A stretch of 64,000 bases of DNA from NCBI GenBank assembly GCA_964016885.1, contig OZ024743.1, positions 136,958,001 through 137,022,000 on the forward strand, read 5' to 3'. A program made the position numbers and the translations under genes. Positions 1 through 54,229 of this stretch are shown here, in pieces (the first letter of the stretch is position 1; each line of letters begins with the position of its first letter). Below the pieces are notes generated by a model. The model searched no databases. It was not told the DNA's origin and saw nothing but the letters and a program-made list of their open reading frames with translations. Origin of the DNA: Eledone cirrhosa (lineage: Eukaryota).

Positions 1-3000
1 TGCTTGGTGTTTGGTGCTTGGTGCTTGGTGCTTGGTGTTTGGTGCTTGGTGCTTGGTGTTTGGTGCTTGGTGCTTGGTGTTTGGTTTTTGGTGCTTGGTG
101 CTTGGTGTTTGGTGTTTGGTGCTTGCTGCTGGCTGCTTGGTGTTTGATGCATGGTGATTGGTGCTTGGTGTTTGGTGCTTGGTGTTTGGTGTTTGATGCT
201 TGGTGCTTGGTGCTTGGTGTTTGGTGCTTGGTGCTTGGTGTTTGGTGCTTGGTGTTTGGTGCTTGGTGTTTGGTGCTTGGTGTTTGGTGCTTGGTGCTTG
301 GTGCTTGGTGCTTGGTGTTTGGTGGTTGGTGCTTGGTGCTTGGTGTTAGGTGTTTGGTGCTTGGTGCTTGGTGTTTGGTGTTTGGTGCTTGGTGTTTGGT
401 GTTTGGTGCTTGGTGTTTGGTGCTTGGTACTTGGTGCTTGGTACTTGGTGTTAGGTGTTTGGTGCTTGGTGATTGGTGTCTGGTTTTTGGTGCTTGGTGC
501 TTGGTGTTTGTTGTTTGGTGCTTGCTGCTGGCTGCTTGGTGTTTGGTGCTTTTTTATTGGTGCTTGGTGTTTGGTGCTTGGTGCTTGGTGTTTGGTGTTT
601 GCTGCTTGGTGTTTGATGCTTGGTGCTTGGTGCTTGGTGTTTTGTGTTTGGTGCTTGGTGTTTGTACTTGGTGCTTGGTGCTTGGTGTTTGGTTCTTGGT
701 TCTTGGTGTTTGGTACTTGGTGCTTGATGTTTGGTGTTTGGTGCTTGGTGTTTGGTGCTTGGTGCTTGGTGCTTGGTGTTAGGTGTTTGGTGCTTGGTCC
801 TTGGTGTTTGGTGCTTTGTGTTTGGTGTTTGCTGTTAGGTGTTTGGTGTTTGGTGTTTGGTGTTTGCTGTTTGGTGTCTGCTTTTTGGTGTTCAGTGTTT
901 GCTGTATGGTGTTTGGTGTTTGCTGTTTGGTGTTTGGTCTTTGGTGCTTGGTGTTTGGTGCTTGGTGCTTGGTGTTTGGTGTTTGGTGTTTGGTGCTTGG
1001 TGTTTGGTGTTTGGTGCTTGGTGTTTGGTGTTTGGTACTTGGTGTCTGGTGCTTGGTGTTTGGTTTTTGGTGCTTGGTGTTTGGTGTTTGGTGTTTGGTG
1101 TTTGGTGTTTGGTGCTTGGTGCTTGGTGTTTGGTGTTTCGTGTTTGGTGCTTGGTGTCTGGTGCTTGGTGTTTGGTGTTTGGTGCTTGGTGTTTGGTGTT
1201 TGGTGTTTGGTGCTTGGTGCTTGGTGCGTGGTGTTTGGTGTTTGGTGCTTGGTGTTTGGTGCTTGGTGCTGGGTGGTTGGTGTTTGGTGCTTGGTGTTTG
1301 GTGCTGGGTGCTTGGTGTTTGGTGCTGGGGGCTTGGTGTTTGGTGCTTGGTGCTTGGTCTTTGCTGCTTGGTGTTTGGTGCTTGGTGCTTGGTGTTTGGT
1401 GTTTGGTGCTTGGTGCTTGGTGTTTGGTGCTTCGTGCTTGGTGTTTGGTTTTTGGTGCTTGGTGCTTGGTGTTTGGTGTTTGGTGCTTGCTGCTGGCTGC
1501 TTGGTGTTTGATGCATGGTGATTGGTGCTTGGTGTTTGGTGCTTGGTGTTTGGTGTTTGATGCTTGGTGCTTGGTGTTTGGTGATTGGTGCTTGGTGCTT
1601 GGTGCTTGGTGCTTGGTGTTTGGTGCTTGTAGCTTGGTGTTTGGTGCTTGGTGCTTGGTGTTTGGTTTTTGGTGCTTGGTGTTTGGTGTTTGGTGTTTGG
1701 TGCTTGCTGCTGGCTGCTTGGTGTTTGATGCATGGTGATTTGTGCTTGGTGTTTGGTGCTTGGTGTTTGGTGTTTGATGCTTGGTGCTTGGTGTTTGGTG
1801 TTTGATGCTTGGTGCTTGGTGCTTGGTGCTTGGTGTTTGGTGCTTGGTGTTTGGTGCTTGGTGATTGGTGTTTGTACTTGGTGCTTGGTGCTTGGTTCTT
1901 GGTGTTTGGTGCTTGGTGCTTGGTGTTTGGTGTTATATGCTTGGTGTTTGATGCTTGGTGCTTGGTGCTTGGTGTTTGGTGTTTGGTGTTTGATGCTTGG
2001 TGCTTGGTGTTTGGTGCTTGGTGCTTGGTGTTTGTACTTGGTGCTTGGTGCTTGGTGCTTGGTGTTTGGTGCTTGGTGTTTGGTGCTTGGTGTTTGGTGC
2101 TTGGTGTTACGTGTTTGGTGCTTGGTGCTTGGTGTTTGGTGTTTGGTGCTTGGTGTTTGGTGTTTGGTGCTTGGTGTTTGGTGCTTTTTGCTTGGTGCTT
2201 GGTGCTTGGTGTTTGGTGCTGGGTGCTTGGTGCTTGGTGTTTGGTGTTATATGCTTGGTGTTTGATGCTTGGTGCTTGGTGCTTGGTGTTGTGTGTTTGG
2301 TGCTTGGTGTTTGGTGTTTGGTGCTTGGTGCTTGGTGTTTGGTGTTTGGTGCTTGGTGCTTGGTGCTTGGAGTTTGGTGTTTGGTGCTTGGTGCTTTGTG
2401 TTTTGTGTTTGGTGTTTGGTATTTGGTGCTTGGTGCTTGGTCCTTGGTGTTTGGTGCTGGGTGCTTTGTGTTTGGTGCTTGGTGCTTGGTGTTTGGTGTT
2501 TGCTGCTTGGTGTTTGATGCTTGGTGCTTGGTGCTTGGTGTTTTGTGTTTGGTGCTTGGTTCTTGGTACTTGGTGTTTGTACTTGGTGCTTGGTGCTTGG
2601 TGTTTGGTTCTTGGTGTTTGGTACTTGGTGCTTGGTGCTTGATGTTTGGTGTTTGGTGCTTGGTGTCTGGTGCTTGGTGTTTGGTTTTTGGTGCTTGGTG
2701 TTTGGTGTTTGGTGCTTGGTGTTTGGTGTTTGGTGTTTGGTTCTTGGTGCTTGGTGTTTGGTGTTTGGTGTTTGGTGCTTGGTGTCTGGTGCTTGGTGTT
2801 TGGTGTTTGGTGCTTGGTGTTTGGTGTTTGGTGTTTGGTGCTTGGTGCTTGGTGCTTGCTGTTTGGTGTTTGGTGCTTGGTGCTTGGTGTTTGGTGCTTG
2901 GTGCTGGGTGCTTGGTGTTTGGTGCTGGGTGCTTGGCGTTTGGTGCTTGGTGCTTGGTCTTTGGTGCTTGGTGTTTGGTGCTTGGTGCTTGGTGCTTGGT

Positions 3001-5277
3001 GTTTGGTGCTTGGTGCTTGGTGTTTGGTGCTTGGTGCTTGGTGTTTGGTTTTTGGTGCTTGGTGCTTGGTGTTTGGTGTTTGGTGCTTGCTGCTGGCTGC
3101 TTGGTGTTTGATGCATGGTGATTGGTGCTTGGTGTTTGGTGCTTGGTGTTTGGTGTTTGATGCTTGGTGCTTGGTGCTTGGTGTTTGGTGCTTGGTGCTT
3201 GGTGTTTGGTGCTTGGTGTTTGGTGCTTGGTGTTTGGTGCTTGGTGTTTGGTGCTTGGTGCTTGGTGCTTGGTGCTTGGTGTTTGGTGGTTGGTGCTTGG
3301 TGCTTGGTGTTAGGTGTTTGGTGCTTGGTGCTTGGTGTTTGGTGTTTGGTGCTTGGTGTTTGGTGTTTGGTGCTTGGTGTTTGGTGCTTGGTACTTGGTG
3401 CTTGGTACTTGGTGTTAGGTGTTTGGTGCTTGGTGATTGGTGTCTGGTTTTTGGTGCTTGGTGCTTGGTGTTTGTTGTTTGGTGCTTGCTGCTGGCTGCT
3501 TGGTGTTTGGTGCTTTTTTATTGGTGCTTGGTGTTTGGTGCTTGGTGCTTGGTGTTTGGTGTTTGCTGCTTGGTGTTTGATGCTTGGTGCTTGGTGCTTG
3601 GTGTTTTGTGTTTGGTGCTTGGTGTTTGTACTTGGTGCTTGGTGCTTGGTGTTTGGTTCTTGGTTCTTGGTGTTTGGTACTTGGTGCTTGATGTTTGGTG
3701 TTTGGTGCTTGGTGTTTGGTGCTTGGTGCTTGGTGCTTGGTGTTAGGTGTTTGGTGCTTGGTCCTTGGTGTTTGGTGCTTTGTGTTTGGTGTTTGCTGTT
3801 AGGTGTTTGGTGTTTGGTGTTTGGTGTTTGCTGTTTGGTGTCTGCTTTTTGGTGTTCAGTGTTTGCTGTATGGTGTTTGGTGTTTGCTGTTTGGTGTTTG
3901 GTCTTTGGTGCTTGGTGTTTGGTGCTTGGTGCTTGGTGTTTGGTGTTTGGTGTTTGGTGCTTGGTGTTTGGTGTTTGGTGCTTGGTGTTTGGTGTTTGGT
4001 ACTTGGTGTCTGGTGCTTGGTGTTTGGTTTTTGGTGCTTGGTGTTTGGTGTTTGGTGTTTGGTGTTTGGTGTTTGGTGCTTGGTGCTTGGTGTTTGGTGT
4101 TTCGTGTTTGGTGCTTGGTGTCTGGTGCTTGGTGTTTGGTGTTTGGTGCTTGGTGTTTGGTGTTTGGTGTTTGGTGCTTGGTGCTTGGTGCGTGGTGTTT
4201 GGTGTTTGGTGCTTGGTGTTTGGTGCTTGGTGCTGGGTGGTTGGTGTTTGGTGCTTGGTGTTTGGTGCTGGGTGCTTGGTGTTTGGTGCTGGGGGCTTGG
4301 TGTTTGGTGCTTGGTGCTTGGTCTTTGCTGCTTGGTGTTTGGTGCTTGGTGCTTGGTGTTTGGTGTTTGGTGCTTGGTGCTTGGTGTTTGGTGCTTCGTG
4401 CTTGGTGTTTGGTTTTTGGTGCTTGGTGCTTGGTGTTTGGTGTTTGGTGCTTGCTGCTGGCTGCTTGGTGTTTGATGCATGGTGATTGGTGCTTGGTGTT
4501 TGGTGCTTGGTGTTTGGTGTTTGATGCTTGGTGCTTGGTGTTTGGTGATTGGTGCTTGGTGCTTGGTGCTTGGTGCTTGGTGTTTGGTGCTTGGTGCTTG
4601 GTGTTTGGTGCTTGGTGCTTGGTGTTTGGTTTTTGGTGCTTGGTGTTTGGTGTTTGGTGTTTGGTGCTTGCTGCTGGCTGCTTGGTGTTTGATGCATGGT
4701 GATTTGTGCTTGGTGTTTGGTGCTTGGTGTTTGGTGTTTGATGCTTGGTGCTTGGTGTTTGGTGTTTGATGCTTGGTGCTTGGTGCTTGGTGCTTGGTGT
4801 TTGGTGCTTGGTGTTTGGTGCTTGGTGATTGGTGTTTGTACTTGGTGCTTGGTGCTTGGTTCTTGGTGTTTGGTGCTTGGTGCTTGGTGTTTGGTGTTAT
4901 ATGCTTGGTGTTTGATGCTTGGTGCTTGGTGCTTGGTGTTTGGTGTTTGGTGTTTGATGCTTGGTGCTTGGTGTTTGGTGCTTGGTGCTTGGTGTTTGTA
5001 CTTGGTGCTTGGTGCTTGGTGCTTGGTGTTTGGTGCTTGGTGTTTGGTGCTTGGTGTTTGGTGCTTGGTGTTACGTGTTTGGTGCTTGGTGCTTGGTGTT
5101 TGGTGTTTGGTGCTTGGTGTTTGGTGTTTGGTGCTTGGTGTTTGGTGCTTTTTGCTTGGTGCTTGGTGCTTGGTGTTTGGTGCTGGGTGCTTGGTGCTTG
5201 GTGTTTGGTGTTATATGCTTGGTGTTTGATGCTTGGTGCTTGGTGCTTGGTGTTGTGTGTTTGGTGCTTGGTGTTTG
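1..5277 (+). repeat. Higher-order tandem duplication, period 2964 bp (1-~2313 repeated at 2965-~5277)
   Basis: ORF pairs 151/3115, 783/3747, 839/3803, 1515/4479, 1732/4696 and 2269/5233 are all offset by 2964 with near-identical translations. The match ends at 2314 (G) vs 5278 (A). Confidence 0.95.
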
Positions 5278-7629
5278 ATGCTTGGTGCTTGGTGCTTGGT
5301 GTTTGGTGCTTGGTGCTTGGTGTTTGGTGCTTGGTGCTTGGTGTTTGGTGCTTGGTGTTTGGTGCTTGGTGTTTGGTGCATGGTGGTTGGTGCTTGGTGC
5401 TTGGTGTTTGGTGGTTGGTGCTTGGTGTTAGGTGTTTGGTGCTTAGTGCTTGGTGTTTGGTGTTTGGTGCTTGGTGTTTGGTGTTTGGTGCTTGGTGTTT
5501 GGTGCTTGGTACTTGGTGCTTGGTGTTAGGTGTTTGGTGCTTGGTGCTTGGTGTCTGGTTTTTGGTGCTTGGTGCTTGGTGTTTGGTGCTTGCTGCTGGC
5601 TGCTTGGTGTTTGGTGCTTGGTGATTGGTGCTTGGTGTTTGGTGTTTGGTGCTAGGTGCTTGGTGTTTGGTGCTTGGTGCTTGGTGTTTGTACTTGGTGC
5701 TTGGTGCTTGGTTCTTGGTGTTTGGTGCTTGGTGCTTGGTGTTTGGTGCTTGGTGCTTGGTGTTTGGTGCTTGGTGTTTGGTGCTTGGTGTTTATTGCTT
5801 GGTGCTTGGTGCTTGGTGTTTGGTGCTTGGTGTTTGGTGCTTGGTGTTTGGTGGTTGGTGTTTGGTGTTTGGTGTTATATGCTTGGTGTTTGATGCTTGG
5901 TGCTTGGTGCTTGGTGTTTGGTGCTTGGTGTTTGATGCTTGGTGCTTGGTGCTTGGTGTTTGGTGCTTGGTGCTTGGTGTTTGTACTTGGTGCTTGGTGC
6001 TTGGTTCTTGGTGTTTGGTGCTTGGTGTTTGGTGTTTGGTGCTTGGTGTTTGGTGTTTGGTGTTATATGCTTGGTGTTTGATGCTTGGTGCTTAGTGCTT
6101 GGTGTTTGGTGCTTGGTGTTTGATGCTTGGTGCTTGGTGCTTGGTGTTTGGTGCTTGGTGCTTGGTGTTTGGTGCTTGGTGCTTGGTGTTTGTACTTGGT
6201 GCTTGGTGCTTGGTTCTTGGTGTTTGGTGCTTGGTGCTTGGTGTCTGGTGCTTGGTGCTCGGTGTTTGGTGCTTGGTGTTTGGTGCTTGGTGTTTGGTGC
6301 TTGGTGCTTGGTGCTTAGTGCTTGGTGTTTGGTGCTTGGTGTTAGGTGTTTGGTGCTTGGTGCTTGGTGTTTGGTGTTTGGTGCTTGGTGTTTGGTGCTT
6401 GGTGTTTGGTGTTAGGTGTCTGGTGCTTGGTGTTTGATGTTTGGTGCTTGGTGTTTGGTGCTTGGTGTTTGGTGCTTGGTGTTTGGTGCTTGGTACTTGG
6501 TGCTTGGTGCTTCGTGTTAGGTGTTTGGTGCTTGGTGCTTGGTGTTTGGTTTTTGGTGCTTGGTGCTTGGTGTTTGGTGTTTGGTGCTTGCTGCTGGCTG
6601 CTTGGTCTTTGATGCTTGGTGATTGGTGCTTGGTGTTTTGTGCTTGGTGTTTGGTGTTTGGTGCTAGGTGCTTGGTGTTTGGTGCTTGGTGCTTGGTGCT
6701 TGATGTTTGGTGTTTGGTGTTAGGTGCTTGGTGCTTGGTGTTTGGTGCTTGGTGCAGGGTGGTTGGTGTTTAGTGCTTGGTGTTTGGTGCTGGGTGCTTG
6801 GTGTTTGGTGCTTGGTGCTTGGTCTTTGGTGCTTGGTGTTTGGTGTTTGGTGCTTGGTGCTTGGTGCTTGGTGTTTGGTGCTTGGTGCTTGGTGTTTGGT
6901 GCTTGGTGCTTAGTGTTTGGTGCTTGGTGCTTAGTGTTTGGTGTTTGGTGCTTGGTGCTTGGTGTTTGGTGCTTACTGTTTGGTGCTTGGTGCTTGGTGT
7001 TTGGTGTTTGCTGTTTGCTGTTTGCTGTTTGTTGTTTGGTGTTTGTTGTTTGGTGTTTGCTGTTTGGTGTTTGGTGTTTGCTTTTTGGTGTTTGGTGTTT
7101 GCTGTATGTTGTTTGCTGTTTGGTGTTTGGTGTTTGGTGTTTGGTGCTTGTTGCTTGGTGTTTGGTGCTTGGTGCTTGGTGTTTGGTGCCTGGTGCTTGG
7201 TGCTTGGTGCTTGGTGTTTGGTGTTTGGTGCTTGGTGCTTGGAGTTTGGTGTTTGGTGCTTGGTGTTTCGTGTTTCGTGTTTGGTTTTTGGTGCTTGGTG
7301 CTTGGTGCTTGGTCCTTGGTGTTTGGTGCTGGGTGCATTGTGTTTGGTGCTTGGTGCTTGGTGCTTGGTGTTTGGTGTTTGCTGCTTGGTGTTTGATGCT
7401 TGGTGCTTGGTGCTTGGTGTTTTGTGTTTGGTGCTTGGTGCTTGGTGTTTGGTGCTTGGTGCTTGGTGCTTGGTGTTTGTACTTGGTGCTTGGTGATTGG
7501 TGTTTGGTTCTTGGTTCTTGGTGTTTGGTGCTTGGCGTTTGGTGTTTGGTGCTTGGTGCTTGGTGTTTGGTGCTTGGTGCTTGGTGTTTGGTGCCTGGTG
7601 CTTGGTGCTTGGTGCTTGGTGTTTGGTGT

Positions 7630-8850
7630 TTGGTGCTTGGTGCTTGGTGCTTGGAGTTTGGTGTTTGGTGCTTGGTGCTTTGTGTTTTGTGTTTGGTGTT
7701 TGGTATTTGGTGCTTGGTGCTTGGTCCTTGGTGTTTGGTGCTGGGTGCTTTGTGTTTGGTGCTTGGTGCTTGGTGTTTGGTGTTTGCTGCTTGGTGTTTG
7801 ATGCTTGGTCCTTGGTGCTTGGTGTTTTGTGTTTGGTGCTTGGTTCTTGGTGTTTGGTGCTTGGTGCTTGGTACTTGGTGTTTGTACTTGGTGCTTGGTG
7901 CTTGGTGTTTGGTTCTTGGTGTTTGGTACTTGGTGCTTGGTGCTTGATGTTTGGTGTTTGGTGCTTGGTGTCTGGTGCTTGGTGTTTGGTTTTTGGTGCT
8001 TGGTGTTTGGTGTTTGGTGCTTGGTGTTTGGTGTTTGGTGTTTGGTTCTTGGTGCTTGGTGTTTGGTGTTTGGTGTTTGGTGCTTGGTGTCTGGTGCTTG
8101 GTGTTTGGTGTTTGGTGCTTGGTGTTTGGTGTTTGGTGTTTGGTGCTTGGTGCTTGGTGCTTGCTGTTTGGTGTTTGGTGCTTGGTGCTTGGTGTTTGGT
8201 GCTTGGTGCTGGGTGCTTGGTGTTTGGTGCTGGGTGCTTGGTGTTTGGTGCTTGGTGCTTGGTCTTTGGTGCTTGGTGTTTGGTGCTTGGTGCTTGGTGC
8301 TTGGTGTTTGGTGCTTGGTGCTTGGTGTTTGGTGCTTGGTGCTTGGTGTTTGGTTTTTGGTGCTTGGTGCTTGGTGTTTGGTGTTTGGTGCTTGCTGCTG
8401 GCTGCTTGGTGTTTGATGCATGGAGATTGGTGCTTGGTGTTTGGTGCTTGGTGTTTGGTGTTTGATGCTTGGTGCTTGGTGCTTGGTGTTTGGTGCTTGG
8501 TGCTTGGTGTTTGGTGCTTGGTGTTTGGTGCTTGGTGTTTGGTGCTTGGTGTTTGGTGCTTGGTGCTTGGTGCTTGGTGCTTGGTGTTTGGTGGTTGGTG
8601 CTTGGTGCTTGGTGTTAGGTGTTTGGTGCTTGGTGCTTGGTGTTTGGTGTTTGGTGCTTGGTGTTTGGTGTTTGGTGCTTGGTGTTTGGTGCTTGGTACT
8701 TGGTGCTTGGTACTTGGTGTTAGGTGTTTGGTGCTTGGTGCTTGGTGTCTGGTTTTTGGTGCTTGGTGCTTGGTGTTTGTTGTTTGGTGCTTGCTGCTGG
8801 CTGCTTGGTGTTTGGTGCTTTTTTATTGGTGCTTGGTGTTTGGTGCTTGG
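7630..8850 (+). repeat. Dispersed copy of ~2345-3550 (offset ~5284-5305 bp)
   Basis: ORF pairs 2646/7951 and 3115/8420 (5305) and 2521/7805 (5284). Shared markers TTGGAGT, TTGGTAT, TTGGTCC and CTTTTTTATTGG. Confidence 0.88.
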
Positions 8851-8884
8851 TGTTTGGTGTTTGGTGCTTGGTGATTGGTGCTTG

Positions 8885-9033
8885 GTGTTTGTTGCTTGGT
8901 GTTAGGTGCTTGGTGCTTGGTGTTTGGTGCCTGGTGCTTGGTGCTTGGTGCTTGGTGTTTGGTGTTTGGTGCTTGGTGCTTGGAGTTTGGTGTTTGGTGC
9001 TTGGTGTTTCGTGTTTCGTGTTTGGTTTTTGGT
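8885..9033 (+). repeat. Copy of ~7145-7292 (offset 1741 bp), truncated at the inversion junction
   Basis: The marker order CTGGTGC…TTGGAGT…TTCGTGT-TTCGTGT-TTGGTTT-TTGGT occurs at 7190-7292 and at 8931-9033. Confidence 0.88.
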
Positions 9034-9037
9034 CCAA
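9029..9037. other. Inversion junction between the two satellite arms (TTGG-T-CCAA)
   Basis: 9021-9045 reads tttggtttttggt|ccaagcaccaag. The strand switch is abrupt with no spacer. Confidence 0.97.
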
Positions 9038-9139
9038 GCACCAAGCACCAAACACCAAACAGCAAGCACCAAAGACCAAGCACCAAGCACCAAGCACCAA
9101 GCACCAAACAATAAGCACCAAGCACCAAGCACCAAACAC

Positions 9140-12100
9140 CAAGCACCAAGCACCAAACACCAACCACCCAGCACCAAGCACCAAGCACCAAACACCAAGC
9201 ACCAAACACCAAACACCAAACACCAAGCACCAAGCACCAAGCACCAAACACCAAGCACCAAGCACTAAGCACCAAACACCAAGCCCCAATCACCAAGCAC
9301 CAAACACCAAACGCCAAGCACCAAGCACCTAACACCAAGCACCAAGCACCAAGCACCTAGCACCAAACACCTAACACCAAGCACCAAGCACCAAACACCA
9401 AGCACCAATCACCAAGCACCAAACACCAAGCAGCAAGCAGCAAGCAACAAACACCAAACACCAAGCACCAAGCACCAAACACCAAGCACCAAGGACCAAA
9501 CATCAAACACCAAGCACCAAGCACCAAACACCTAACACCAATCACCAAGCACCAAGCACCGAACACCAAGCACATAACACCAAGCACCAAACACCAAGCA
9601 CCAAGCACCAAACACCAAGCACCAAACACCAAGCACCAAGCACCAAGCACCAAACACCAAGCACCAGGCACCAAGCACCAAACACCAAACACCATGCACC
9701 AAGCACCAAGCCCCAAACACTTAACACCAAGCACCAAGCACCAAGCACCAAACACCAATCACCAAAAACCAAACACCAAGCACCAAGTACCAAACACCAA
9801 GCACCAAGCACCAAACACCAAGCACCAATCACCAAACACCAAGAACCAAGCACCAAACACCAAGCACCAAGCACCAAGCACCAGGCACCAAGCACCAAGC
9901 ACCAAACACAAAACACCAAGCACCAAGGACCAAGCAGCAAACACCAAGCATCAAACACCAAACACCAAACACCAAGCACCAAGCACCAAGCAGCAAACAG
10001 CAAGCATCAAACACCAAACACCAAACACCAAGCACCAAACACCAAGCACCAAGCACCAAACACCAAACACCAAGCACCAAGCACCAAGCACCAAACACCA
10101 AACACCAAGCACCAAACACCAAACACCAAGCACCAAGCACCAAACACCAAACAACAAGCACCAGGCACCAAGCAAAAAACACCAAACACCAAGCACGCAG
10201 CATCAAACACCAAGCACCAAGCACCAAGCACCAAACACCAAGCACCAAGCACCAAGCACCAAGTACCAAACACCAAACACCAAGCACCAAACACCAAACA
10301 CCAAGCACCAATCACCAAGCACGAAACACCAGGCACCAAGCACCAAGCACCAAACACCAAACACCAAGCACCAAACACCAGCCACCAAGCACCAAGCACC
10401 AAACACCAAACACCAAGCACTAAGCACCAAACACCAAACAACAAGCACCAGGCACCAAGCACCAAACACCAAACACCAAGCACGCATCACCAAACACCAA
10501 GCACCAAGCACCAAGCACCAAAAACCAAGCACCAAGCACCAAGCACAAAACACCAAACACCAAACACCAAGCACCAAGAACCAAACACCAAACACCAAAC
10601 AGCAAGCACCAAGCACCAAACACCAAGCACCAAACACCAAACCCCAAGCACCAATCACCAAACACTAATCACCAAGCACTAAGCACCAAACACCGAGCAC
10701 CAAACACCAAGCACCAAGCACCAAACACCAAACCCCAAGCACCATAGACCAAGCACCAAGCACCAAGGAACAAACACCAAGCACCAAGCACAAAGCACCA
10801 AACACCAAGCACCAAGCACCAAACACCCAGCACCAAGCACCAAGCATCAAACACCAAGCACCAAGCACCAAACACCAAACACCAAACACCAAGCACCAAG
10901 CACTAAACAGCAAGCACCAAACACCAAACACCAAACAGCAAACACCAAACAGCAAACACCAAACACCAAACACCAAACAGCAAATGCCAAACACAAAGCA
11001 CCAAGCACCAAGCACCAAACACCAAGCACCAAGCACCAAGCACAAAACATCAAACACCAAGCACCAAGCACCAAGCACCAAACACCAAGCACCAAACATC
11101 AAGCACCAAACACCAAGCACCAAACACCAAACACTAAACACCAAGCACCAAGCACCAATCACCAAACACCAAGTACCAAGCACCAAACACCAAGCACCAA
11201 GCACCAAGCACCAAGCACCAAGCACCAAACACAAAACACCAAGCACCAAGCACCAAGCAGCAAACACCAAGCATCAAACACCAAACACCAAACACCAAGC
11301 ACCAAGCACCAAGCAGCAAACAGCAAGCATCAAACACCAAACACCAAACACCAAGCACCAAACACCAAGCACCAAGCACCAAACACCAAACACCAAGCAC
11401 CAAGCACCAAGCACCAAACACCAAACACCAAGCACCAAACACCAAACACCAAGCACCAAGCACCAAACACCAAACAACAAGCACCAGGCACCAAACACCA
11501 AGCACCAAGCACCAAACACCAAACACCAAGCACCAAGCACCAAGCACCAAGTACCAAACACCAAGCACCAAACACCAAACACCAAGCACCAATCACCAAG
11601 CACGAAACACCAGGCACCAAGCACCAAGCACCAAACACCAAACACCAAGCACCAAACACCAGCCACCAGGCACCAAGCACCAAACACCAAACACCATGCA
11701 CCAAGCACCAAGCCCCAAACACTTAACACCAAGCACCAAGCACCAAGCACCAAACACCAATCACCAAAAACCAAACACCAAGCACCAAGTACCAAACACC
11801 AAGCACCAAGCACCAAACACCAAGCACCAAGCACCAATCACCAAACACCAAGAACCAAGCACCAAACACCAAGCACCAAGCACCAAGCACCAGGCACCAA
11901 GCACCAAGCACCAAACACAAAACACCAAGCACCAAGGACCAAGCAGCATACACCAAGCATCAAACACCAAACACCAAACACCAAGCACCAAGCACCAAAC
12001 AGCAAGCATCAAACACCAAACACCAAACACCAAGCACCAAACACCAAGCACCAAGCACTAAACACCAAACACCAAGCACCAAGCACCAAACACCAAACAC

Positions 12101-14200
12101 CAAGCACCAAACACCAAACACCAAACACCAAGCACCAAGAACCAAACACCAAACACCAAACAGCAAGCACCAAGCACCAAACACCAAGCACCAATCACCA
12201 AACACCAAGCACCAAGCACCAAACACCAAACACCAGGCACAAAGCACCAAACACCAAGCACCAAGCACCAAACACCAAGCACCAAACACAAAGCACCAAG
12301 CACCAAACACCAAACCCCAAGCACCAAACACCAAACCTCAAGCACCAAGCACAAAACACTAATCACCAAGCACCAAGCACCAAACAACAAGCACCAAGCA
12401 CCAGGCACCAAGCACCAAGCACCAAACACTAATCACCAAGCACCAAGCACCAAGCACCAAACACCAAGCACCAAGCACCATGCACCAAACACCAAGCACC
12501 AAGCATAAAGCACCAAGCACCAAACACCAACCACCCAGCACCAAGCACCAAGCACCAAACACCAAGCACCAAACACCAAACACCAAACACCAAGCACCAA
12601 GCACCAAGCACCAAACACCAAGCACCAAGCACTAAGCACCAAACACCAAGCCCCAATCACCAAGCACCAAACACCAAACACCAAGCACCAAGCACCTAAC
12701 ACCAAGCACCAAGCACCAAGCACCTAGCACCAAACACCAAACACCAAGCACCAAGCACCAAACACCAAGCACCAATCACCAAGCACCAAACACCAAGCAG
12801 CAAGCAGCAAGCAACAAACACCAAACACCAAGCACCAAGCACCAAACACCAAGCACCAAGGACCAAACATCAAACACCAAGCACCAAGCACCAAACACCT
12901 AACAACAATCACCAAGCACCAAGCACCGAACACCAAGCACATAACACCAAGCACCAAACACCAAGCACCAAGCACCAAACACCAAGCACCAAACACCAAG
13001 CACCAAGCACCAAGCACCAAACACCAAGCACCAGGCACCAAGCACCAAACACCAAACACCATGCACCAAGCACCAAGCCCCAAACACTTAACACCAAGCA
13101 CCAAGCACCAAGCACCAAACACCAATCACCAAAAACCAAACACCAAGCACCAAGTACCAAACACCAAGCACCAAGCACCAAACACCAAGCACCAAGCACC
13201 AATCACCAAACACCAAGAACCAAGCACCAAACACCAAGCACCAAGCACCAAGCACCAGGCACCAAGCACCAAGCACCAAACACAAAACACCAAGCACCAA
13301 GGACCAAGCAGCAAACACCAAGCATCAAACACCAAACACCAAACACCAAGCACCAAGCACCAAGCAGCAAACAGTAAGCATCAAACACCAAACACCAAAC
13401 ACCAAGCACCAAACACCAAGCACCAAGCACCAAACACCAAACACCAAGCACCAAGCACCAAACACCAAACACCAAACACCAAGCACCAAACACCAGCCAC
13501 CAAGCACCAAGCACCAAACACCAAACACCAAGCACTAAGCACCAAACACCAAACAACAAGCACCAGGCACCAAGCACCAAACACCAAACACCAAGCACGC
13601 ATCACCAAACACCAAGCATCAAGCACCAAGCACCAAAAACCAAGCACCAAGCACCAAGCACCAAACACCAAACACCAAACACCAAGCACCAAGAACCAAA
13701 CACCAAACACCAAACAGCAAGCACCAAGCACCAAACACCAAGCACCAAACACCAAACCCCAAGCACCAATCACCAAACACTAATCACCAAGCACCAAGCA
13801 CCAAACACCGAGCACCAAACACCAAGCACCAAGCACCAAACACCAAACCCCAAGCACCATAGACCAAGCACCAAGCACCAAGGAACAAACACCAAGCACC
13901 AAGCACCAAGCACCAAACACCAAGCACCAAGCACCAAACACCCAGCACCAAGCACCAAGCATCAAACACCAGGCACCAAGCACCAAACACCAAACACCAA
14001 ACACCAAGCACCAAGCACTAAACAGCAAGCACCAAACACCAAACACCAAACAGCAAACACCAAACAGCAAACACCAAACAGCAAACACCAAACACCAAAC
14101 ACCAAACAGCAAATGCCAAACACCAAGCACCAAGCACCAAGCACCAAACACCAAGCACCAAGCACCAAGCACAAAACATCAAACACCAAGCACCAAGCAC
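9140..14200 (-). repeat. Higher-order duplication: ~9140-10050 recurs at ~12510-13420 (offset 3367-3374) and ~10370-11080 recurs at ~13490-14200 (offset 3115)
   Basis: ORF pairs 9357/12724, 9532/12899, 9694/13061 and 9759/13126 (3367 = 481x7); 10665/13780, 10669/13784 and 10847/13962 (3115 = 445x7). Confidence 0.9.
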
Positions 14201-15089
14201 CAAGCACCAAACACCAAGCACCAAACACCAAGCACCAAGCACCAAACACAAAACACCAAGCACCAAGCACCAAACACAAAACACCAAGCACCAAGCACCA
14301 AGCAGCAAACACCAAGCATCAAACACCAAACACCAAACACCAAGCACCAAGCACCAAGCAGCAAACAGCAAGCATCAAACACCAAACACCAAACACCAAG
14401 CACCAAACACCAAGCACCAAGCACCAAACACCAAACACCAAGCACCAAGCACCAAGCACCAAACACCAAGCACCAAACACCAAACACCAAGCACCAAGCA
14501 CCAAACACCAAACAACAAGCACCAGGCACCAAGCAAAAAACACCAAACACCAAGCACGCAGCATCAAACACCAAGCACCAAGCACCAAGCACCAAACACC
14601 AAGCACCAAGCACCAAGCACCAAGTACCAAACACCAAGCACCAAACACCAAACACCAAGCACCAATCACCAAGCACGAAACACCAGGCACCAAGCACCAA
14701 GCACCAAACACCAAACACCAAGCACCAAACACCAAACACCAAGCACCAATCACCAAGCACGAAACACCAGACACAAAGCACCAAGCACCAAACACCAAAC
14801 ACCAAGCACCAAACACCAGCCACCAAGCACCAAGCACCAAACACCAAACACCAAGCACTAAGCACCAAACACCAAACAACAAGCACCAGGCACCAAGCAC
14901 CAAACACCAAACACCAATCACGCATCACCAAACACCAAGCACCAGGCACCAAGCACCAAAAACCAAGCACCAAGCACCAAGCACCAAACACCAAACACCA
15001 AACACCAAGCACCAAGAACCAAACACCAAACACCAAACAGCAAGCACTAAGCACCAAACACCAAGCACCAAACACCAAACCCCAAGCAC

Positions 15090-18000
15090 CAATCACCAAA
15101 CACTAATCACCAAGCACCAAGCACCAAACACCAAGCACCAAGCACCAAACACCAAACCCCAAGCACCATAGACCAAGCACCAAGCACCAAGGAACAAACA
15201 CCAAGCACCAAGCACCAAGCACCAAACACCAAGCACCAAGCACCAAACACCCAGCACCAAGCACCAAGCATCAAACACCAAGCACCAAGCACCAAACACC
15301 AAACACCAAACACCAAGCACCAAGCACTAAACAGCAAGCACCAAACACCAAACACCAAACAGCAAACACCAAACAGCAAACACCAAACACCAAACAGAAA
15401 ACAGCAAACGCCAAACACCAAGCACCAAGCACCAAGCACCAAACACCAAGCACCAAGCACCAAGCACCAAGCACCAAACACCAAGCACCAAACACCAAGC
15501 ACCAAACACCAAGCACCAAACACCAAACACTAAACACCAAGCACCAAGCACCAAACACCAAGCACCAAACACCAAGCACCAAACACCAAGTCCCACGCAC
15601 CAAGCAATAAAACACCAAGCACCAAGCCCCAAACACCAAACACCAAGCACCAAGCACCAAGCCCCTAGCACCAAACACCAAACACCAAGCACCAAGCACA
15701 AAACACCAAGCACCAATCACCAAGCACCAAACACCAAGCAGCAAGCAGCAACCACCAAACACCAAACACCAAGCACCAAGCACCAAATACCAAACACCAA
15801 GCACCAAGCACCAAGCACCAAACACCAAGCACCAATCACCAAACACCAAGCACCAAGCACCAAACACCAAGCACCAGGCACCAAGCACCAAACACCAAGC
15901 ACCAAGCACCAAACACCAAGCACCAAGACCGAAGCACCAAACACCAAGCACCAAGCACAAAGCACCAAGCACCAAGCACCAAAAACCAAACACCAAGCAC
16001 CAAGTACCAAACACCAAGCACCAAGCACCAAACACCAAGCACCAAGAACCAATCACCAAACACCAAGAACCAAGCACCAAACACCAAGCACCAAGCACCA
16101 AGCACCAGGCACCAAGCACCAAGCACCAAACACAAAACACCAAGCACCAAGCACCAAGCAGCAGACACCAAGCATCAAACACCAAACACCAAACACCAAG
16201 CACCAAACACCAAGCACTAAGCACCAAACACCAAACACCAAGCACCAAGCACCAAGCACCAAACACCAAACACCAAGCACCAAACACCAGATACCAAGCA
16301 CCAAGCACCAAACACCAAACTCCAAGCACCAAGCACCAAACACCAAACAACAAGCACCAGGCACCAAGCACCAAACACCAAACACCAAGCACCAAGCACC
16401 AAACACCAAACACCAAGCACGCAGCATCAAACACCAAGCACCAAGCACCAAGCACCAAACACCAAGCACCAAGCACCAAACACCAACCACCAAACACAAA
16501 GCACCAAGCACCAAACACCAAGCACCAAGCACCAAACACCAAGCACCAAGCACCAAACACCAAACCCCAAGCACCAAGCACCAAACACTAATCACCAAGC
16601 ACCAAGCACCAAGCACCAAACACCAAGCACCAAGCACCAAGCACCAAACACCAAGCACCAAACACCAAACACCAAGCACCAAGAACCAAACACCAAACAC
16701 CAAACAGCAAGCACCAAGCACCAAACACCAAGCACCAAACACCAAACCCCAAGCACCAATCACCAAACACTAATCACCAAGCACCAAGCACCAAACACCA
16801 AGCACCAAGCACCAAGCACCAAACCCCAAGCACCATAGACCAAGCACCAAGCACCAAGGAACAAACACCAAGCACCAAGCACCAAGCACCAAACACCAAG
16901 CACCAAGCACCAAACACCCAGCACCAAGCACCAAGCATCAAACACCAAGCACCAAGCACCAAACACCAAACACCAAACACCAAGCACCAAGCACTAAACA
17001 GCAAGCACCAAACACCAAACACCAAACAGCAAACACCAAACAGCAAACACCAAACACCAAACAGAAAACAGCAAACGCCAAACACCAAGCACCAAGCTCC
17101 AAGCACCAAACACCAAGCACCAAGCACCAAGCACAAAACACCAAACACCAAGCACCAAGCACCAAGCACCAAGCACCAAACACCAAGCACCAAACACCAA
17201 GCACCAAACACCAAGCACCAAACACCAAACACTAAACACCAAGCACCAAGCACCAGACACCAAGCACCAAACACCAAGCACCAAACACCAAGTCCCACGC
17301 ACCAAGCAATAAAACACCAAGCACCAAGCCCCAAACACCAAACACCAAGCACCAAGCACCAAGCCCCTAGCACCAAACACCAAACACCAAGCACCAAGCA
17401 CAAAACACCAAGCACCAATCACCAAGCACCAAACACCAAGCAGCAAGCAGCAACCACCAAACACCAAACACCAAGCACCAAGCACCAAATACCAAACACC
17501 AAGCACCAAGCACCAAGCACCAAACACCAAGCACCAATCACCAAACACCAAGCACCAAGCACCAAACACCAAGCACCAGGCACCAAGCACCAAACACCAA
17601 GCACCAAGACCGAAGCACCAAACACCAAGCACCAAGCACAAAGCACCAAGCACCAAGCACCAAAAACCAAACACCAAGCACCAAGTACCAAACACCAAGC
17701 ACCAAGCACCAAACACCAAGCACCAAGAACCAATCACCAAACACCAAGAACCAAGCACCAAACACCAAGCACCAAGCACCAAGCACCAGGCACCAAGCAC
17801 CAAGCACCAAACACAAAACACCAAGCACCAAGCACCAAGCAGCAGACACCAAGCATCAAACACCAAACACCAAACACCAAGCACCAAACACCAAGCACTA
17901 AGCACCAAACACCAAACACCAAGCACCAAGCACCAAGCACCAAACACCAAACACCAAGCACCAAACACCAGATACCAAGCACCAAGCACCAAACACCAAA

Positions 18001-19840
18001 CTCCAAGCACCAAGCACCAAACACCAAACAACAAGCACCAGGCACCAAGCACCAAACACCAAACACCAAGCACCAAGCACCAAACACCAAACACCAAGCA
18101 CGCAGCATCAAACACCAAGCACCAAGCACCAAGCACCAAACACCAAGCACCAAGCACCAAACACCAACCACCAAACACAAAGCACCAAGCACCAAACACC
18201 AAGCACCAAGCACCAAACACCAAGCACCAAGCACCAAACACCAAACCCCAAGCACCAAGCACCAAACACTAATCACCAAGCACCAAGCACCAAGCACCAA
18301 ACACCAAGCACCAAGCACCAAGCACCAAACACCAAGCACCAAACACCAAACACCAAGCACCAAGAACCAAACACCAAACACCAAACAGCAAGCACCAAGC
18401 ACCAAACACCAAGCACCAAACACCAAACCCCAAGCACCAATCACCAAACACTAATCACCAAGCACCAAGCACCAAACACCAAGCACCAAGCACCAAGCAC
18501 CAAACCCCAAGCACCATAGACCAAGCACCAAGCACCAAGGAACAAACACCAAGCACCAAGCACCAAGCACCAAACACCAAGCACCAAGCACCAAACACCC
18601 AGCACCAAGCACCAAGCATCAAACACCAAGCACCAAGCACCAAACACCAAACACCAAACACCAAGCACCAAGCACTAAACAGCAAGCACCAAACACCAAA
18701 CACCAAACAGCAAACACCAAACAGCAAACACCAAACACCAAACAGAAAACAGCAAACGCCAAACACCAAGCACCAAGCTCCAAGCACCAAACACCAAGCA
18801 CCAAGCACCAAGCACAAAACACCAAACACCAAGCACCAAGCACCAAGCACCAAGCACCAAACACCAAGCACCAAACACCAAGCACCAAACACCAAGCACC
18901 AAACACCAAACACTAAACACCAAGCACCAAGCACCAGACACCAAGCACCAAACACCAAGCACCAAACACCAAGTCCCACGCACCAAGCAATAAAACACCA
19001 AGCACCAAGCCCCAAACACCAAACACCAAGCACCAAGCACCAAGCCCCTAGCACCAAACACCAAACACCAAGCACCAAGCACAAAACACCAAGCACCAAT
19101 CACCAAGCACCAAACACCAAGCAGCAAGCAGCAACCACCAAACACCAAACACCAAGCACCAAGCACCAAATACCAAACACCAAGCACCAAGCACCAAGCA
19201 CCAAACACCAAGCACCAATCACCAAACACCAAGCACCAAGCACCAAACACCAAGCACCAGGCACCAAGCACCAAACACCAAGCACCAAGCACCAAACACA
19301 AAACACCAAGCACCAAGCACCAAGCAGCAGACACCAAGCATCAAACACCAAACACCAAACACCAAGCACCAAACACCAAGCACTAAGCACCAAACACCAA
19401 ACACCAAGCACCAAGCACCAAGCACCAAACACCAAACACCAAGCACCAAACACCAGATACCAAGCACCAAGCACCAAACACCAAACTCCAAGCACCAAGC
19501 ACCAAACACCAAACAACAAGCACCAGGCAACAAGCACCAAACACCAAACACCAAGCACCAAGCACCAAACACCAAACACCAAGCACGCAGCATCAAACAC
19601 CAAGCACCAAGCACCAAGCACCAAACACCAAGCACCAAGCACCAAACACCAACCACCAAACACAAAGCACCAAGCACCAAACACCAAGCACCAAGCACCA
19701 AACACCAAGCACCAAGCACCAAACACCAAACCCCAAGCACCAAGCACCAAACACTAATCACCAAGCACCAAGCACCAAGCACCAAACACCAAGCACCAAG
19801 CACCAAGCACCAAACACCAAGCACCAAGCACCAAACACCA
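15090..19840 (-). repeat. Higher-order tandem repeat, ~3 copies, period 1681 bp; third copy has a 196-bp internal deletion
   Basis: ORF pairs 16053/17734, 16217/17898, 16588/18269, 16760/18441, 16774/18455 and 16938/18619 are offset by 1681 with identical translations. The marker TCCCACG-CACCAAG-CAATAAAA occurs at ~15591, ~17293 and ~18974. The offset drops to 1485 after ~19285. Confidence 0.95.
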
Positions 19841-19929
19841 AACACCAAGATCCAAAGACCAAGCTACAAGCCCCAAGCACCAAGCACCAAAAAATAAGCA
19901 CCAAGCACCAAACACCAAGCACCAAGCAC

Positions 19930-21300
19930 CAAACACCAACCACCCAGCACCAAGCACCAAGCACCAAACACCAAGCACCAAACACCAACCACCCAGCACC
20001 AAGCACCAAGCGCCAAGCACCAAACACCAAGCACCAAGCACTAAGCACCAAACACCAAGCCCCAAGCAACAAGCACCAAACACCAAACACCAAGCACCAA
20101 GCACCAAACACTAAGCACCAAGCACCAAGCACCTAGCACCAAACACCAAACACCAAGCACCAAGCACCAAACACCAAGCACCAATCACCAAGCACCAAAC
20201 ACCAAGCAGCAAGCAGCAAGCACCAAACACCTAACACCAAGCACCAAGCACCGAGCACCAAGCACCGAACACCAAGCACCAAACACCAAGCACCAAACAC
20301 CAAGCACCAAGCACCAAGCACCAAACACCAAGCACCAAGCATCACGCACCAAACAATAAGAACCAAGCACCAAGCACCAAACACCAAGCACCAAACACCA
20401 AACACCAAACACCAAACACCAAGCCCCAAGCAACAAGCACCAAACACCAAACACCAAGCACCAAGCACCAAACACTAAGCACCAAGCACCAAGCACCTAG
20501 CACCAAACACCAAACACCAACCACCCAGCACCAAGCACCAAGCGCCAAGCACCAAACACCAAGCACCAAGCACTAAGCACCAAACACCAAGCCCCAAGCA
20601 ACAAGCACCAAACACCAAACACCAAGCACCAAGCACCAAACACCAAGCACCAAGCATCAAGCACCAAACAATAAGAACCAAGCACCAAGCACCAAACACC
20701 AAGCACCAAGCACCAAACACCAACCACCCAGCACCAAGCACCAAGCGCCAAGCACCAAACACCAAGCACCAAGCACTAAGCACCAAACACCAAGCCCCAA
20801 GCAACAAGCACCAAACACCAAACACCAAGCACCAAGCACCAAACACTAAGCACCAAGCACCAAGCACCTAGCACCAAACACCAAACACCAAGCACCAAGC
20901 ACCAAACACCAAGCACCAATCACCAAGGACCAAACATCAAACACCAAGCACCAAGCACCAAACACCTAACACCAAGCACCAAGCACCGAGCACCAAGCTC
21001 CGAACACCAAGCACCAAACACCAAGCACCAAACACCAAGCACCAAGCACCAAGCACCAAACACCAAGCACCAAGCATCAAGCACCAAACAATAAGAACCA
21101 AGCACCAAGCACCAAACACCAAGCACCAAGCACCAAACACCAACCACCCAGCACCAAGCACCAAGCACCAAACACCAAGCACCAAACACCAAACACCAAA
21201 CACCAAGCACCAAGCACCAAGCACCAAACACCAAGCACCAAGCACCAAGCACCTAGCACCAAACACCAAACACCAAGCACCAAGCACCAAACACCAAGCA
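19930..21300 (-). repeat. Cluster of short (~300-420 bp) shuffled tandem duplications
   Basis: ORF ends at 20132/20496/20867 (steps of 364 and 371). Markers CACCAAC-CACCCAG, CGCCAAG, CCCCAAG-CAACAAG and CAATAAG-AACCAAG recur. Confidence 0.8.
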
Positions 21301-24300
21301 CCAATCACCAAGCACAAAACACCAAGCAGCAAGCAGCAAGCACCAAACACCAAACACCAAGCACCAAGCACCAAACACCAAGCACCAAGGACCAAACATC
21401 AAACACCAAGCACCAAGCACCAAACACCTAACACCAAGCACCAAGCACCAAGCACCAGGCACCAAGCACCAAACACCAAGCACCATGCACCAAGCACCAA
21501 GCCCCAAACACTTAACAGCAAGCACCAAGCACCAAGCACCAAACACCAATCACCAAAAACAAAACACCAAGCACCAAGTACCAAACACCAAGCACCAAGC
21601 ACCAAACACCAAGCACCAAGCACCAATCACCAAACACCAAGAACCAAGCACCAAACACCAAGCACCAAGCACCAAGCACCAGGCACCAAGCACCAAGAAC
21701 CAAACACAAAAAAAAAGCCCCAAGCACCAAGCAGCAAACACCAAGCATCAAACACCAAACACCAAACACCAAGCACCAAACACCAAGCACCAAGCACCAA
21801 ACACCAAACACCAAGCACCAAGCACCAAGCACCAAACACCAAGCACCAAACACCAAACAACAAGCACCAGGCACCAAGCAAAAAACACCAAACACCAAGC
21901 ACGCAGCATCAAACACCAAGCACCAAGCACCAAGCACCAAACACCAAGCACCAAGCACCAAGCACCAAGTACCAAACACCAAACACCAAGCACCAAACAC
22001 CAAACACCAAGCACCAATCACCAAGCACGAAACAACAGGCACCAAGCACCAAGCACCAAACACCAAACACCAAGCACCAAACACCAGCCACCAAGCACCA
22101 AGAACCAAACACCAAACACCAAGCACTAAGCACCAAACACCAAACAACAAGCACCAGGCACCAAGCACCAAACACCAAACACCAAGCACGCATCACCAAA
22201 CACCAAGCACCAAGCACCAAGCACCAAAAACCAAGCACCAAGCACCAAGCACCAAACACTAAACACCAAACACCAAGCACCAAGAACCAAACAACAAACA
22301 GCAAGCACCAAGCACCAAACACCAAACCCCAAGCACCAATCACCAAACACTAATCACCAAGCACCAAGCACCAAACACCGAGCACCAAACACCAAGCACC
22401 AAGCACCAAACACCAAACCCCAAGCACCATAGACCAAGCACCAAGCACCAAGGAACAAACACCAAGCACCAAGCACCAAGCACCAAACACCAAGCACCAA
22501 GCACCAAACACCCAGCACCAAGCGCCAAGCATCAAACACCAAGCACCAAGCACCAAACACCAAACACCAAACACCAAGCCCCAAGCACTAAACAGCAAGC
22601 ACCAAACACCAAACACCAAACAGCAAACACCAAACAGCAAACACCAAACACCAAACAGCAAACAGGAAACGCCAAACACCAAGCACCAAGCAGCAAGCAC
22701 CAAACACCAAGCACCAAGCACCAAGCACAAAACACCAAACACCAAGCACCAAGCACCAAGCACCAAGCACCAAACACCAAGCACCAAACACCAAGCACCA
22801 AACACCAAACACCAAACACCAAACACTAAACACCAAGCACCAAGCACCAAACACCAAGCACCAAACACCAAGCACCAAACACCAAGTCCCACGCACCAAG
22901 CACCAAACACCAAGCACCAAGCACCAAGCCCCTAGCACCAAACACCAAACACCAAGCACCAAGAACAAAACACCAAGCACCAATCACCAAGCACCAAACA
23001 CCAAGCAGCAAACACCAAGCACCAATCACCAAACACCAAGCACCAAGCACCAAACACCAAGCACCAGGCACAAAGCACCAAACACCAAGCACCAAGCACC
23101 AAACACCAAGCACCAAGACCGAAGCACCAAACACCAAGCACCAAGCACAAAGCACCAAGCACCAAGCACCAGAAACCAAACACCAAGCACCACGTACCAA
23201 ACACCAAGCACCAAGCACCAAACACCAAGAACCAAGCACCAAACACCAAGCACCAAGCACCAAGCACCAGGCACCAAGCACCAAGCACCAAACACAAAAC
23301 ACCAAGCACCAAGCACCAAGCAGCAAACACCAAGCATCAAACACCAAACACCAAACACCTAGCACCAAACACCAAGCACTAAGCACCAAAAACAAAACAC
23401 CAAGCACCAAGCACCAAGCACTAAACACCAAACACCAAGCACCAAACACCAGATACCAAGCACGCAGCATCAAACACCAAGCACCAAGCACCAAGCACCA
23501 AACACCAAGCACCAAGCACCAAACACCAACCACCAAACACAAAGCACCAAGCACCAAACACCAAGCACCAAGCACCAAACACCAAGCACCAAGCACCAAG
23601 CACCAAGCACCAAGCACCAAACACCAAGCACCAAGCACCAAGCACCAAACACCAAGCACCAAGCACCAAACACCAAACACCAAGATCCAAAGACCAAGCA
23701 CCAAGCCCCAAGCACCAAGCACCAAAATATAAGCACCAAGCACCAAACACCAAGCACCAAGCACCAAACACCAAACACCAAGCACCAAGCACGAAACACC
23801 AAGCACCAATCACCAAGCACCAAACACCAAGCCCCAAGCAGCAAGCACCAAACACCAAACACCAAGCACCAAGCACCAAACACCAAGCACCAAACACCAA
23901 GCACCAATCACCAAGCACCAAACACCAAGCAGCAAGCAGCAAGCACCAAACACCAAACACCAAGCACCAAGCCCCAAACACCAAGCACCAAGGACCAAAC
24001 ATCAAACACCATGCACCAAGCACCAAACACCAAACACCAAGCACCAAGCACCAAGCACCAAACACCAAGCACCAAGCACTAAGCACCAAACGCCAAGCCC
24101 CAAGCACGAAGTACCAAACACCAAGCACCAAACACCAAGCACCAAACACCAAGCACCAAGCACCAAACACCAAGCACCATGAACCAAGCACCTAGCACCA
24201 AACACCAAACACCAAGCACCAAGCATCAAACACCAAGCACCAATCACCAAGCACCAAACACCAAGCAGCAAGCAGCAAGCACCAAACACCAAACACCAAG

Positions 24301-25059
24301 CACCAAGCACCAAACACCAAGCAACAAGGACCAAACATCAAACACCATGCACCAAGCACCAAACACCTAACACCAAGCACCAAGCACCAAGCACCAAGCA
24401 CCGAACACCAAGCACATAACACCAAGCACCAAACACCAAGCACCAAGCACCAAACACCAAGCACCAAACACCAAGCACCAAGCACCAAGCACCAAACACC
24501 AAGCACCAGGCACCAAGCACCAAACACCAAGCACCATGCACCAAGCACCAAGCACCAAACACTTAACACCAAGCACCAAGCACCAAGCACCAAACACCAA
24601 TCACCAAACACCAAACTCCAAGCACCAAGCACCAAACACCAAACAACAAGCACCAGGCACCAAGCACCAAACACCAAACACCAAGCACCAAACACCAAAC
24701 ACCAAGCACGCAGCATCAAACACCAAGCTCCAAGCACCAAGCACCAAACACCAAGCACCAAGCACCAAACACCAACCACCAAACACAAAGCACCAAGCAC
24801 CAAACACCAAGCACCAAGCACCAAACACCAAGCACCAAGCACCAAACACCAAACCCCCAAGCACCAAGCACCAAACACTTATCACCAAGCACCAAGCACC
24901 AAGCACCAAACACCAAGCACCAAGCACCAAGCACCAAACACCAAGCACCAAGCACCAAACACCAAACACCAAGATCCAAAGACCAAGCACCAAGACCCAA
25001 GCACCAAGCACCAAAAAATAAGCACCAAGCACCAAACACCAAGCACCAAGCACCAAACA

Positions 25060-38200: not shown

Positions 38201-38329
38201 ACACCAAACACCAAGATCCAAAGACCAAACACCAAGCCCCAATCACCAAGCATCAAAAAATAAGCACCAAGCACCAAACACCAAGCACCAAGCACCAAAC
38301 ACCAACCACCCAGCACCAAGCACCAAGCA

Positions 38330-49980: not shown

Positions 49981-50219
49981 ACACCAAGCACCAAGCACCA
50001 AACACCAAGCACCAAGCACCAAACACCAAACCCCAAGCACCAAGCACTAGGCACCAAGCAGCAAGCACCAAACACTAATCACCAAGCACCAAGCACCAAG
50101 CACCAAACACCAAGCACCAAGCACCAAACACCAAACACCAAGATCCAAAGACCAAGCACCAAGCCCCAAGCACCAAGCACCAAAAAATAAGCACCAAGCA
50201 CCAAACACCAAGCACCAAG

Positions 50220-54150: not shown

Positions 54151-54229
54151 AAGCACCAAACACCAAGCACCAAGCACCAAACACCAAGCACCAAACACCA
54201 AACCCCAAGCACCAAACACCAAACCCCAA

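What the first reader, a model, noticed from the sequence alone, without database searches (positions are those of the whole stretch)
9020..9050. Spacer-free inversion junction joining G-rich and C-rich arms in telomere-fusion polarity
Seen: (TTGGTGY)n switches to (CACCAAR)n at TTGG-T-CCAA (9029-9037) with no insert, target-site duplication or foreign DNA. Established: G-rich then C-rich on one strand is the polarity of end-to-end telomere fusions, e.g. (TTAGGG)n(CCCTAA)n at human 2q13. Orientation flips also occur inside centromeric satellite arrays. Inference: this is either a fusion of two chromosome ends capped by a non-canonical TTGGTGY repeat, or one breakpoint of an intra-array inversion.
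Basis: partly seen in the sequence, partly recalled or inferred. Interest (0 to 1): 0.8.

Follow-up and report, generated by a model that had tools for sequence, protein, structure and literature searches.

The report
Copied strand flip in giant satellite
This is not a telomere fusion but one of 31 direction flips inside a 14.6-megabase block of a 7-letter repeat, and these flips trace to only about 8 original joins that were likely copied along as the block grew by megabase-sized duplications.

Summary
The flip is real: (TTGGTGY)n turns into (RCACCAA)n at 9033, with no inserted base and no microhomology. The fusion reading fails. This genome's telomere is TTAGGG (10 of 54 chromosome ends; TTGGTGY at 0 of 54). 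The repeat forms one interstitial 14.6-Mb array on C4 that begins C-rich and ends G-rich, the reverse of fusion polarity. It holds 31 strictly alternating strand switches (15 G-to-C, 16 C-to-G; 50 of 50 probes fit the map), which descend from about 8 founding joins. Two joins recur 10 and 11 times, bounding a 105-256-kb inverted block in 0.4-1.9-Mb super-units. The junction itself recurs 2.64 Mb away (5 differences in 1,400 bases), which argues against a chimeric read. The arms are not mirror images, so it is no fold-back. Best reading: a blunt, non-homologous join between oppositely oriented parts of one satellite array, later duplicated with a 2.6-2.9-Mb segment. Closest known: strand switches in human HSat3 (chr9) and beta satellite. 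Read support could not be tested. An ordinary kind of feature; the copied junction families are a modest extra.

The parts
1..9033 (+). Left arm: (TTGGTGY)n satellite, G/T-rich strand on +. It continues upstream about 790 kb to the previous mapped switch (C4 136.174 Mb). About a quarter of monomers are variants; local block duplications of 1.4-5.3 kb.
9029..9037 (.). Strand-switch junction; the join lies between 9033 and 9034. Blunt: no microhomology, no insert. Second copy at G000 C4 139,609,590.
9034..64000 (-). Right arm: the same satellite inverted (RCACCAA on +). It runs about 445 kb to a 200-N scaffold gap at C4 137.411 Mb; in the second copy it runs 427 kb to a 100-kb island of other repeats.
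7143..7330 (+). Unbroken paralogue of the left arm's last 150 bases (2 mismatches), 1,741 bases upstream. It runs on in the G-rich direction and fixes the left breakpoint.

Best explanation
The junction is a blunt head-to-head join between two oppositely oriented parts of one 14.6-Mb interstitial 7-bp satellite array, one of 31 strand switches in it, likely made by non-homologous repair of a break and likely copied once when a 2.6-2.9-Mb stretch of the array duplicated in tandem. Shown: the blunt join, the second copy, the alternating map, the junction families, the TTAGGG telomere. Inferred: (1) a double-strand break in the array was repaired by end joining, or by a replication template switch without homology, onto an inverted end of the same array. 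Homologous exchange between same-strand monomers cannot create a switch. (2) Unequal exchange or break-induced replication then copied existing switches as passengers of megabase duplications. (3) The join has no function of its own.
For: Breakpoints fixed by unbroken paralogues, 0 microhomology. Second copy 2.64 Mb downstream with the same junction string, 5 of 1,400 flank bases different, indels mostly in whole monomers or larger blocks, and matching sequence again about 400 kb further on. The same order of landmarks follows both copies: junction, 25-28-bp satellite, family-2 switch, family-1 switch. 31 alternating switches, with 50 of 50 probes agreeing. 11 C-to-G switches are one family, 10 G-to-C switches another (pairwise 0.36-2.0%), and 3 C-to-G a third. 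Human HSat3 and beta-satellite switch counts scale with array length (10.64898/2026.07.22.740206).
Against: No read-level check: no sequencing run was listed. The two copies differ by only 0.36% and a scaffold gap lies between them, so they could be two alleles placed in tandem. The base-by-base walk between the copies lost register after about 15.5 kb on the right and 3.6 kb on the left. No reciprocal partner of this join was found. Pairs of missed switches between probes cannot be excluded. End joining versus template switching cannot be told apart from sequence.
Confidence: 0.87

Rival explanations
1. Assembly artefact: the join is a chimeric read or mis-join, or much of the repeated megabase structure is both haplotypes stacked in tandem.
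For: Pure satellite is hard to assemble (own knowledge). A 200-N gap lies 445 kb downstream. The two copies differ by 0.36%, which could be allelic. No run was listed for a read check.
Against: Two diverged copies carry the identical join; even if they are alleles, both hold it. No N lies in the window or in 50 kb around the second copy. Ten family-2 copies all differ pairwise (45 of 45 pairs, 5-28 differences in about 1,400 bases), more than two haplotypes can give. The arms share no 100-mer in mirror orientation, unlike a fold-back chimera.
Confidence: 0.07
2. End-to-end chromosome fusion seam: two ends capped by TTGGTGY (as telomere or subtelomeric satellite) fused at 9033.
For: Local G-rich-then-C-rich polarity and a clean join. 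C4 is one of four giant scaffolds (379-443 Mb) beside 23 of 22-136 Mb, a karyotype in which fusions are plausible (inference). 44 of 54 ends, both ends of C4 among them, stop short of any telomere.
Against: All 10 resolved ends are TTAGGG in proper polarity; TTGGTGY at 0 of 54. 15 switches share this polarity and 16 have the opposite one. The array's outer polarity is C-rich left, G-rich right. The join is duplicated, and both arms have paralogues elsewhere inside the array. No head-to-head TTAGGG match lies in the array (0 of 18 sites).
Confidence: 0.03
3. Fold-back (sister-chromatid fusion, breakage-fusion-bridge or hairpin-capped inverted duplication) centred near 9033.
For: The strand folds into a long hairpin across the join (-97.1 kcal/mol, z -17.7). 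Subtypes like the right arm occur inverted 420-640 kb upstream.
Against: The mirror image of the left 29 kb shares 0 100-mers with the right 55 kb, against 29% and 13% sharing within arms. Any strand switch of this repeat folds so. Only a very asymmetric fold-back that lost hundreds of kb remains possible.
Confidence: 0.03

Closest known systems
Strand switches in human HSat3B5 (chr9) and beta-satellite arrays (10.1101/2021.07.12.452052, passages; 10.64898/2026.07.22.740206, passages and section 6)
   Same: Multi-megabase satellite array with many internal switches. In humans the count scales with array length (r = 0.90) and is read as a by-product of expansion.
   Different: Here about 2 switches per Mb. 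They are traced by sequence to about 8 founding joins, two of which recur as a pair in a megabase super-unit. The passages read describe the human switches as randomly distributed; their supplements were not seen and may treat junction families.
Inversion inside the active alpha-satellite array of human chr1, with a later duplication in one haplotype; macro-repeats on chr12 (same two preprints)
   Same: Intra-array inversion followed by large duplication; repeats of very large unit size within an array.
   Different: 171-bp monomer (stated) and a proven centromere. Centromere function is untested here.
Human chromosome 2 fusion site, 2q13-14 (10.1101/2024.12.12.628057, passages)
   Same: G-rich then C-rich repeat on one strand.
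   Different: There the repeat is the species' own telomere motif, a few hundred bases per side, amid segmental duplications. Here the repeat is not the telomere motif, runs for hundreds of kb, and both polarities recur many times.

Membership tests
Telomere-to-telomere fusion site | Repeat is the organism's telomere motif | tested here: not met
   TTAGGG at 10 of 54 ends, TTGGTGY at 0 of 54
Telomere-to-telomere fusion site | G-rich then C-rich polarity at the join | tested here: met
Telomere-to-telomere fusion site | Single seam; block as a whole reads G-rich to C-rich; no reciprocal switches | tested here: not met
   31 switches, 16 of opposite polarity; array starts C-rich and ends G-rich; join present twice
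Telomere-to-telomere fusion site | Flanks belong to two ancestral chromosomes | not testable with these tools
   no relatives are held for this genome
Intra-array satellite strand switch | Same repeat family on both sides in opposite orientation, interstitial | tested here: met
   same two main monomers; C4 137 of 379 Mb
Intra-array satellite strand switch | Switches of both polarities alternate in the array | tested here: met
   15 + 16 switches; 50 of 50 probes
Intra-array satellite strand switch | Supported by spanning reads | not testable with these tools
   no run listed; indirect support from the diverged second copy
Simple two-break reciprocal inversion | Far end of the inverted block carries the continuation of the left arm | tested here: not met
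   the far end abuts a 6-kb-unit repeat and a 25-28-bp satellite, and its last bases are not the left arm's continuation
Fold-back palindrome (BFB type) | Arms are near-identical mirror images | tested here: not met
   0 shared 100-mers, 29 kb against 55 kb
Centromeric satellite | CENP-A binding or primary constriction | not testable with these tools
   Nearly all copies lie on one chromosome, so it is not a pan-centromeric repeat; a role on C4 alone is open

The most novel reading that the evidence does not exclude
A 7-bp satellite has evolved a megabase-scale higher-order unit with a built-in inversion. Its head-to-head joints, which can extrude long hairpins, are themselves the fragile sites that drive each next megabase duplication, so the strand switches propagate themselves and inflate a chromosome-specific 14.6-Mb block. 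The junction at 9033 would be a young, second-generation switch caught after its first duplication. The repeated unit is shown in the assembly; the driving role of the joints is untested.
Probability: 0.15. Interest if true: 0.55.

Novelty: new member of a known kind. Interest (0 to 1): 0.22.

Why it matters
As a telomere or fusion finding it does not matter: it is neither. As satellite biology it gives a clean case where strand switches can be counted by descent: 31 switches, about 8 origins. That supports the view that switches in large arrays are mostly copied, not made afresh. The junction strings are unique tags in an otherwise unmappable 14.6-Mb array. They would let one date and order megabase duplications, check the assembly, and type array length in populations. 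No paper in the library held two of the terms TTGGTGC, TTGGTGT, GCACCAA, ACACCAA and 'satellite' as whole words, which is weak evidence only that the repeat is undescribed.

Tried and rejected
Read support: the look-up of sequencing runs on the 67-base junction (3 sampled words) listed no run. None was listed, which is no evidence either way; no reads were laid. Palindromic centre as a recognition site: rejected, it follows from repeat phase. Hairpin energy as evidence of function: rejected, expected at any switch. Shared microhomology mechanism: 2 bases at the 134.467-Mb join, 0 here and 0 at 142.158 Mb; the other four joins tested (family 1 and its 131.69-Mb derivative, family 2, family 3, with 129.226 Mb a fifth) lacked usable unbroken parents on one or both sides. 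The first G-to-C search missed this very junction because its left flank is variant-rich; wider gaps found the rest. Family-1 divergences up to 7.7% (the 131.69-Mb derivative left out, 10 of 11 compared) are probably inflated by block indels and were not used for dating. Earlier scan findings: none returned. Papers that added little: 10.64898/2026.09.17.752431 (passages; says satellites tend to lie on one strand) and PMC12597820 (passages). Literature searches. No supplements were read.

Full report
Observation. The sequence reads TTGG-T-CCAA at 9029-9037. The window is one 7-bp satellite with two main monomers, CCAAGCA and CCAAACA on the C-rich strand, and about a quarter variant monomers in both arms. 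All 1,019 TGGTG words lie left of the join and all 6,193 CACCA words lie right of it. The flip is real and the only one in the window.

Setting. The window is G000 C4:136,958,001-137,022,000, in a 3.0-Gb assembly. C4 is 379 Mb long, one of four giant scaffolds among 27 chromosome-scale ones. The 28-base repeat pattern has 570,285 matches genome-wide; at the window's density this equals about 14.0 Mb. The C4 array runs from 128.823 to 143.422 Mb, 14.6 Mb. A 71-kb copy lies on C2 inside a 25-28-bp satellite. So the repeat is almost wholly one interstitial block.

Telomere test. I read 1,500 bases at both ends of all 27 chromosome-scale scaffolds. Ten of 54 ends carry TTAGGG arrays, all in proper polarity, and 0 of 54 carry TTGGTGY. 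The other 44 ends, both C4 ends among them, stop before a telomere, so the negative is incomplete there, but the genome-wide count leaves little room for terminal arrays. Head-to-head TTAGGG matches occur at 18 sites, none in the array.

Map of switches. Pattern searches found 15 G-to-C switches: 129.226, 130.209, 131.437, 133.037, 134.327, 134.467, 134.761, 135.989, 136.967 (this one), 137.734, 138.740, 139.610, 140.594, 141.034 and 142.158 Mb. They found 14 direct C-to-G switches: 129.212, 130.017, 130.436, 131.693, 133.200, 134.432, 134.526, 134.981, 136.174, 137.891, 138.931, 140.780, 141.214 and 142.890 Mb. Two more C-to-G changes pass through other sequence: at 137.411 Mb (a 200-N gap, then 600 bases of 25-28-bp satellite) and at 140.036-140.137 Mb (about six copies of a 6.1-kb unit, then 64 kb of the 25-28-bp satellite; no N in the stretch read up to 140.125 Mb or from 140.132 Mb). 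The 31 switches alternate strictly, and 50 of 50 probes agree with the map. The array begins C-rich and ends G-rich, the reverse of a fused pair of ends.

Junction families. Eleven C-to-G switches share flanks and descend from one join: nine in one orientation, two flipped, one with a remodelled centre. Ten G-to-C switches share one junction string and differ pairwise by 0.36-2.0%, median 0.74%. In nine places the two bound an inverted block of 105-256 kb, spaced 0.44-1.85 Mb apart. Three C-to-G switches form a third family. With this junction (2 copies), the island boundary (2 on C4) and three single joins, 31 switches come from about 8 origins.

This junction. Its second copy lies at 139,609,590. 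It differs at 5 of 1,400 flank bases, with indels, and the two C-rich blocks match again near their far ends. Unbroken paralogues place the left break after the central T and the right break at 9034, with no overlap and no insert. The arms are not mirror images: 0 shared 100-mers, against 29% and 13% within arms. The far end of the inverted block is not the left arm's continuation but the repeat island, so this is not a simple reciprocal inversion. The long hairpin and the short palindrome (3 of 49 phases) follow from any such switch.

Mechanism. Shown: a blunt join, a duplicate, copied junction families. Inferred from established repair biology (own knowledge): same-strand recombination cannot flip a repeat, so a new switch needs end joining or a template switch, and zero microhomology fits classical end joining best. 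Once made, a switch is copied whenever unequal exchange or break-induced replication duplicates the stretch that holds it. Confidence 0.87. The main caveat is the lack of reads. The second copy could be the other allele, which would still support the join but lower the copy count.

Comparison. It works like, and meets the testable features of, intra-array strand switches known from human HSat3B5 on chr9 and beta satellite (over 200 breakpoints; 10.1101/2021.07.12.452052, passages). In those arrays the number of switches scales with array length (10.64898/2026.07.22.740206, section 6). It is not a member of the telomere-fusion class of human 2q13-14, where the inverted repeat is the species' telomere motif (10.1101/2024.12.12.628057, passages). 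Supplements of these preprints were not seen and may already describe copied junction families.

Verdict. Observation confirmed; fusion rejected; new member of a known kind. Interest 0.22. The one feature above routine is the megabase super-unit with its inherited inversion.

Noticed in passing
G000 C2 250.8606-250.9315 Mb (L120, L147) against C4 137.412 and 140.137 Mb (L066, L148): A 71-kb piece of the 7-bp satellite sits inside a 25-28-bp satellite on C2. One of its boundaries is shared with both C4 islands (1-6 differences in about 550 bases, 3-5 in about 1,500), joined through a 5-base overlap. This points to recent exchange between C2 and C4, or to a misplaced contig.
   Followed up: partly
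G000 C1-C6 and C28, 18 sites: Short head-to-head TTAGGG/CCCTAA hairpins, 16 with a near-constant AT-rich centre, dispersed over the large scaffolds. They look like part of a mobile element and would mimic fusion relics.
   Followed up: no
L149 1313-7037 (C4 128.816-128.822 Mb): Six tRNA-Arg genes or pseudogenes, most about 1.45 kb apart, directly abut the array's left edge.
   Followed up: no
L085-L088 (C4 140.036-140.072 Mb): About six tandem copies of a 6.1-kb composite unit built from a degenerate 11-12-bp repeat in both orientations, (TA)n and (TTTTA)n.
   Followed up: no
L028 and L038 (C4 130.436 and 142.890 Mb): The two outermost family-1 copies are inverted relative to each other, are each other's closest match (8 of 1,358) and differ by about 2% or more from the inner copies. 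This suggests a layered expansion from the middle.
   Followed up: no
G000 C1-C28: Strongly bimodal karyotype: four scaffolds of 379-443 Mb and 23 of 22-136 Mb. None of the eight ends of the giants reaches a telomere.
   Followed up: no
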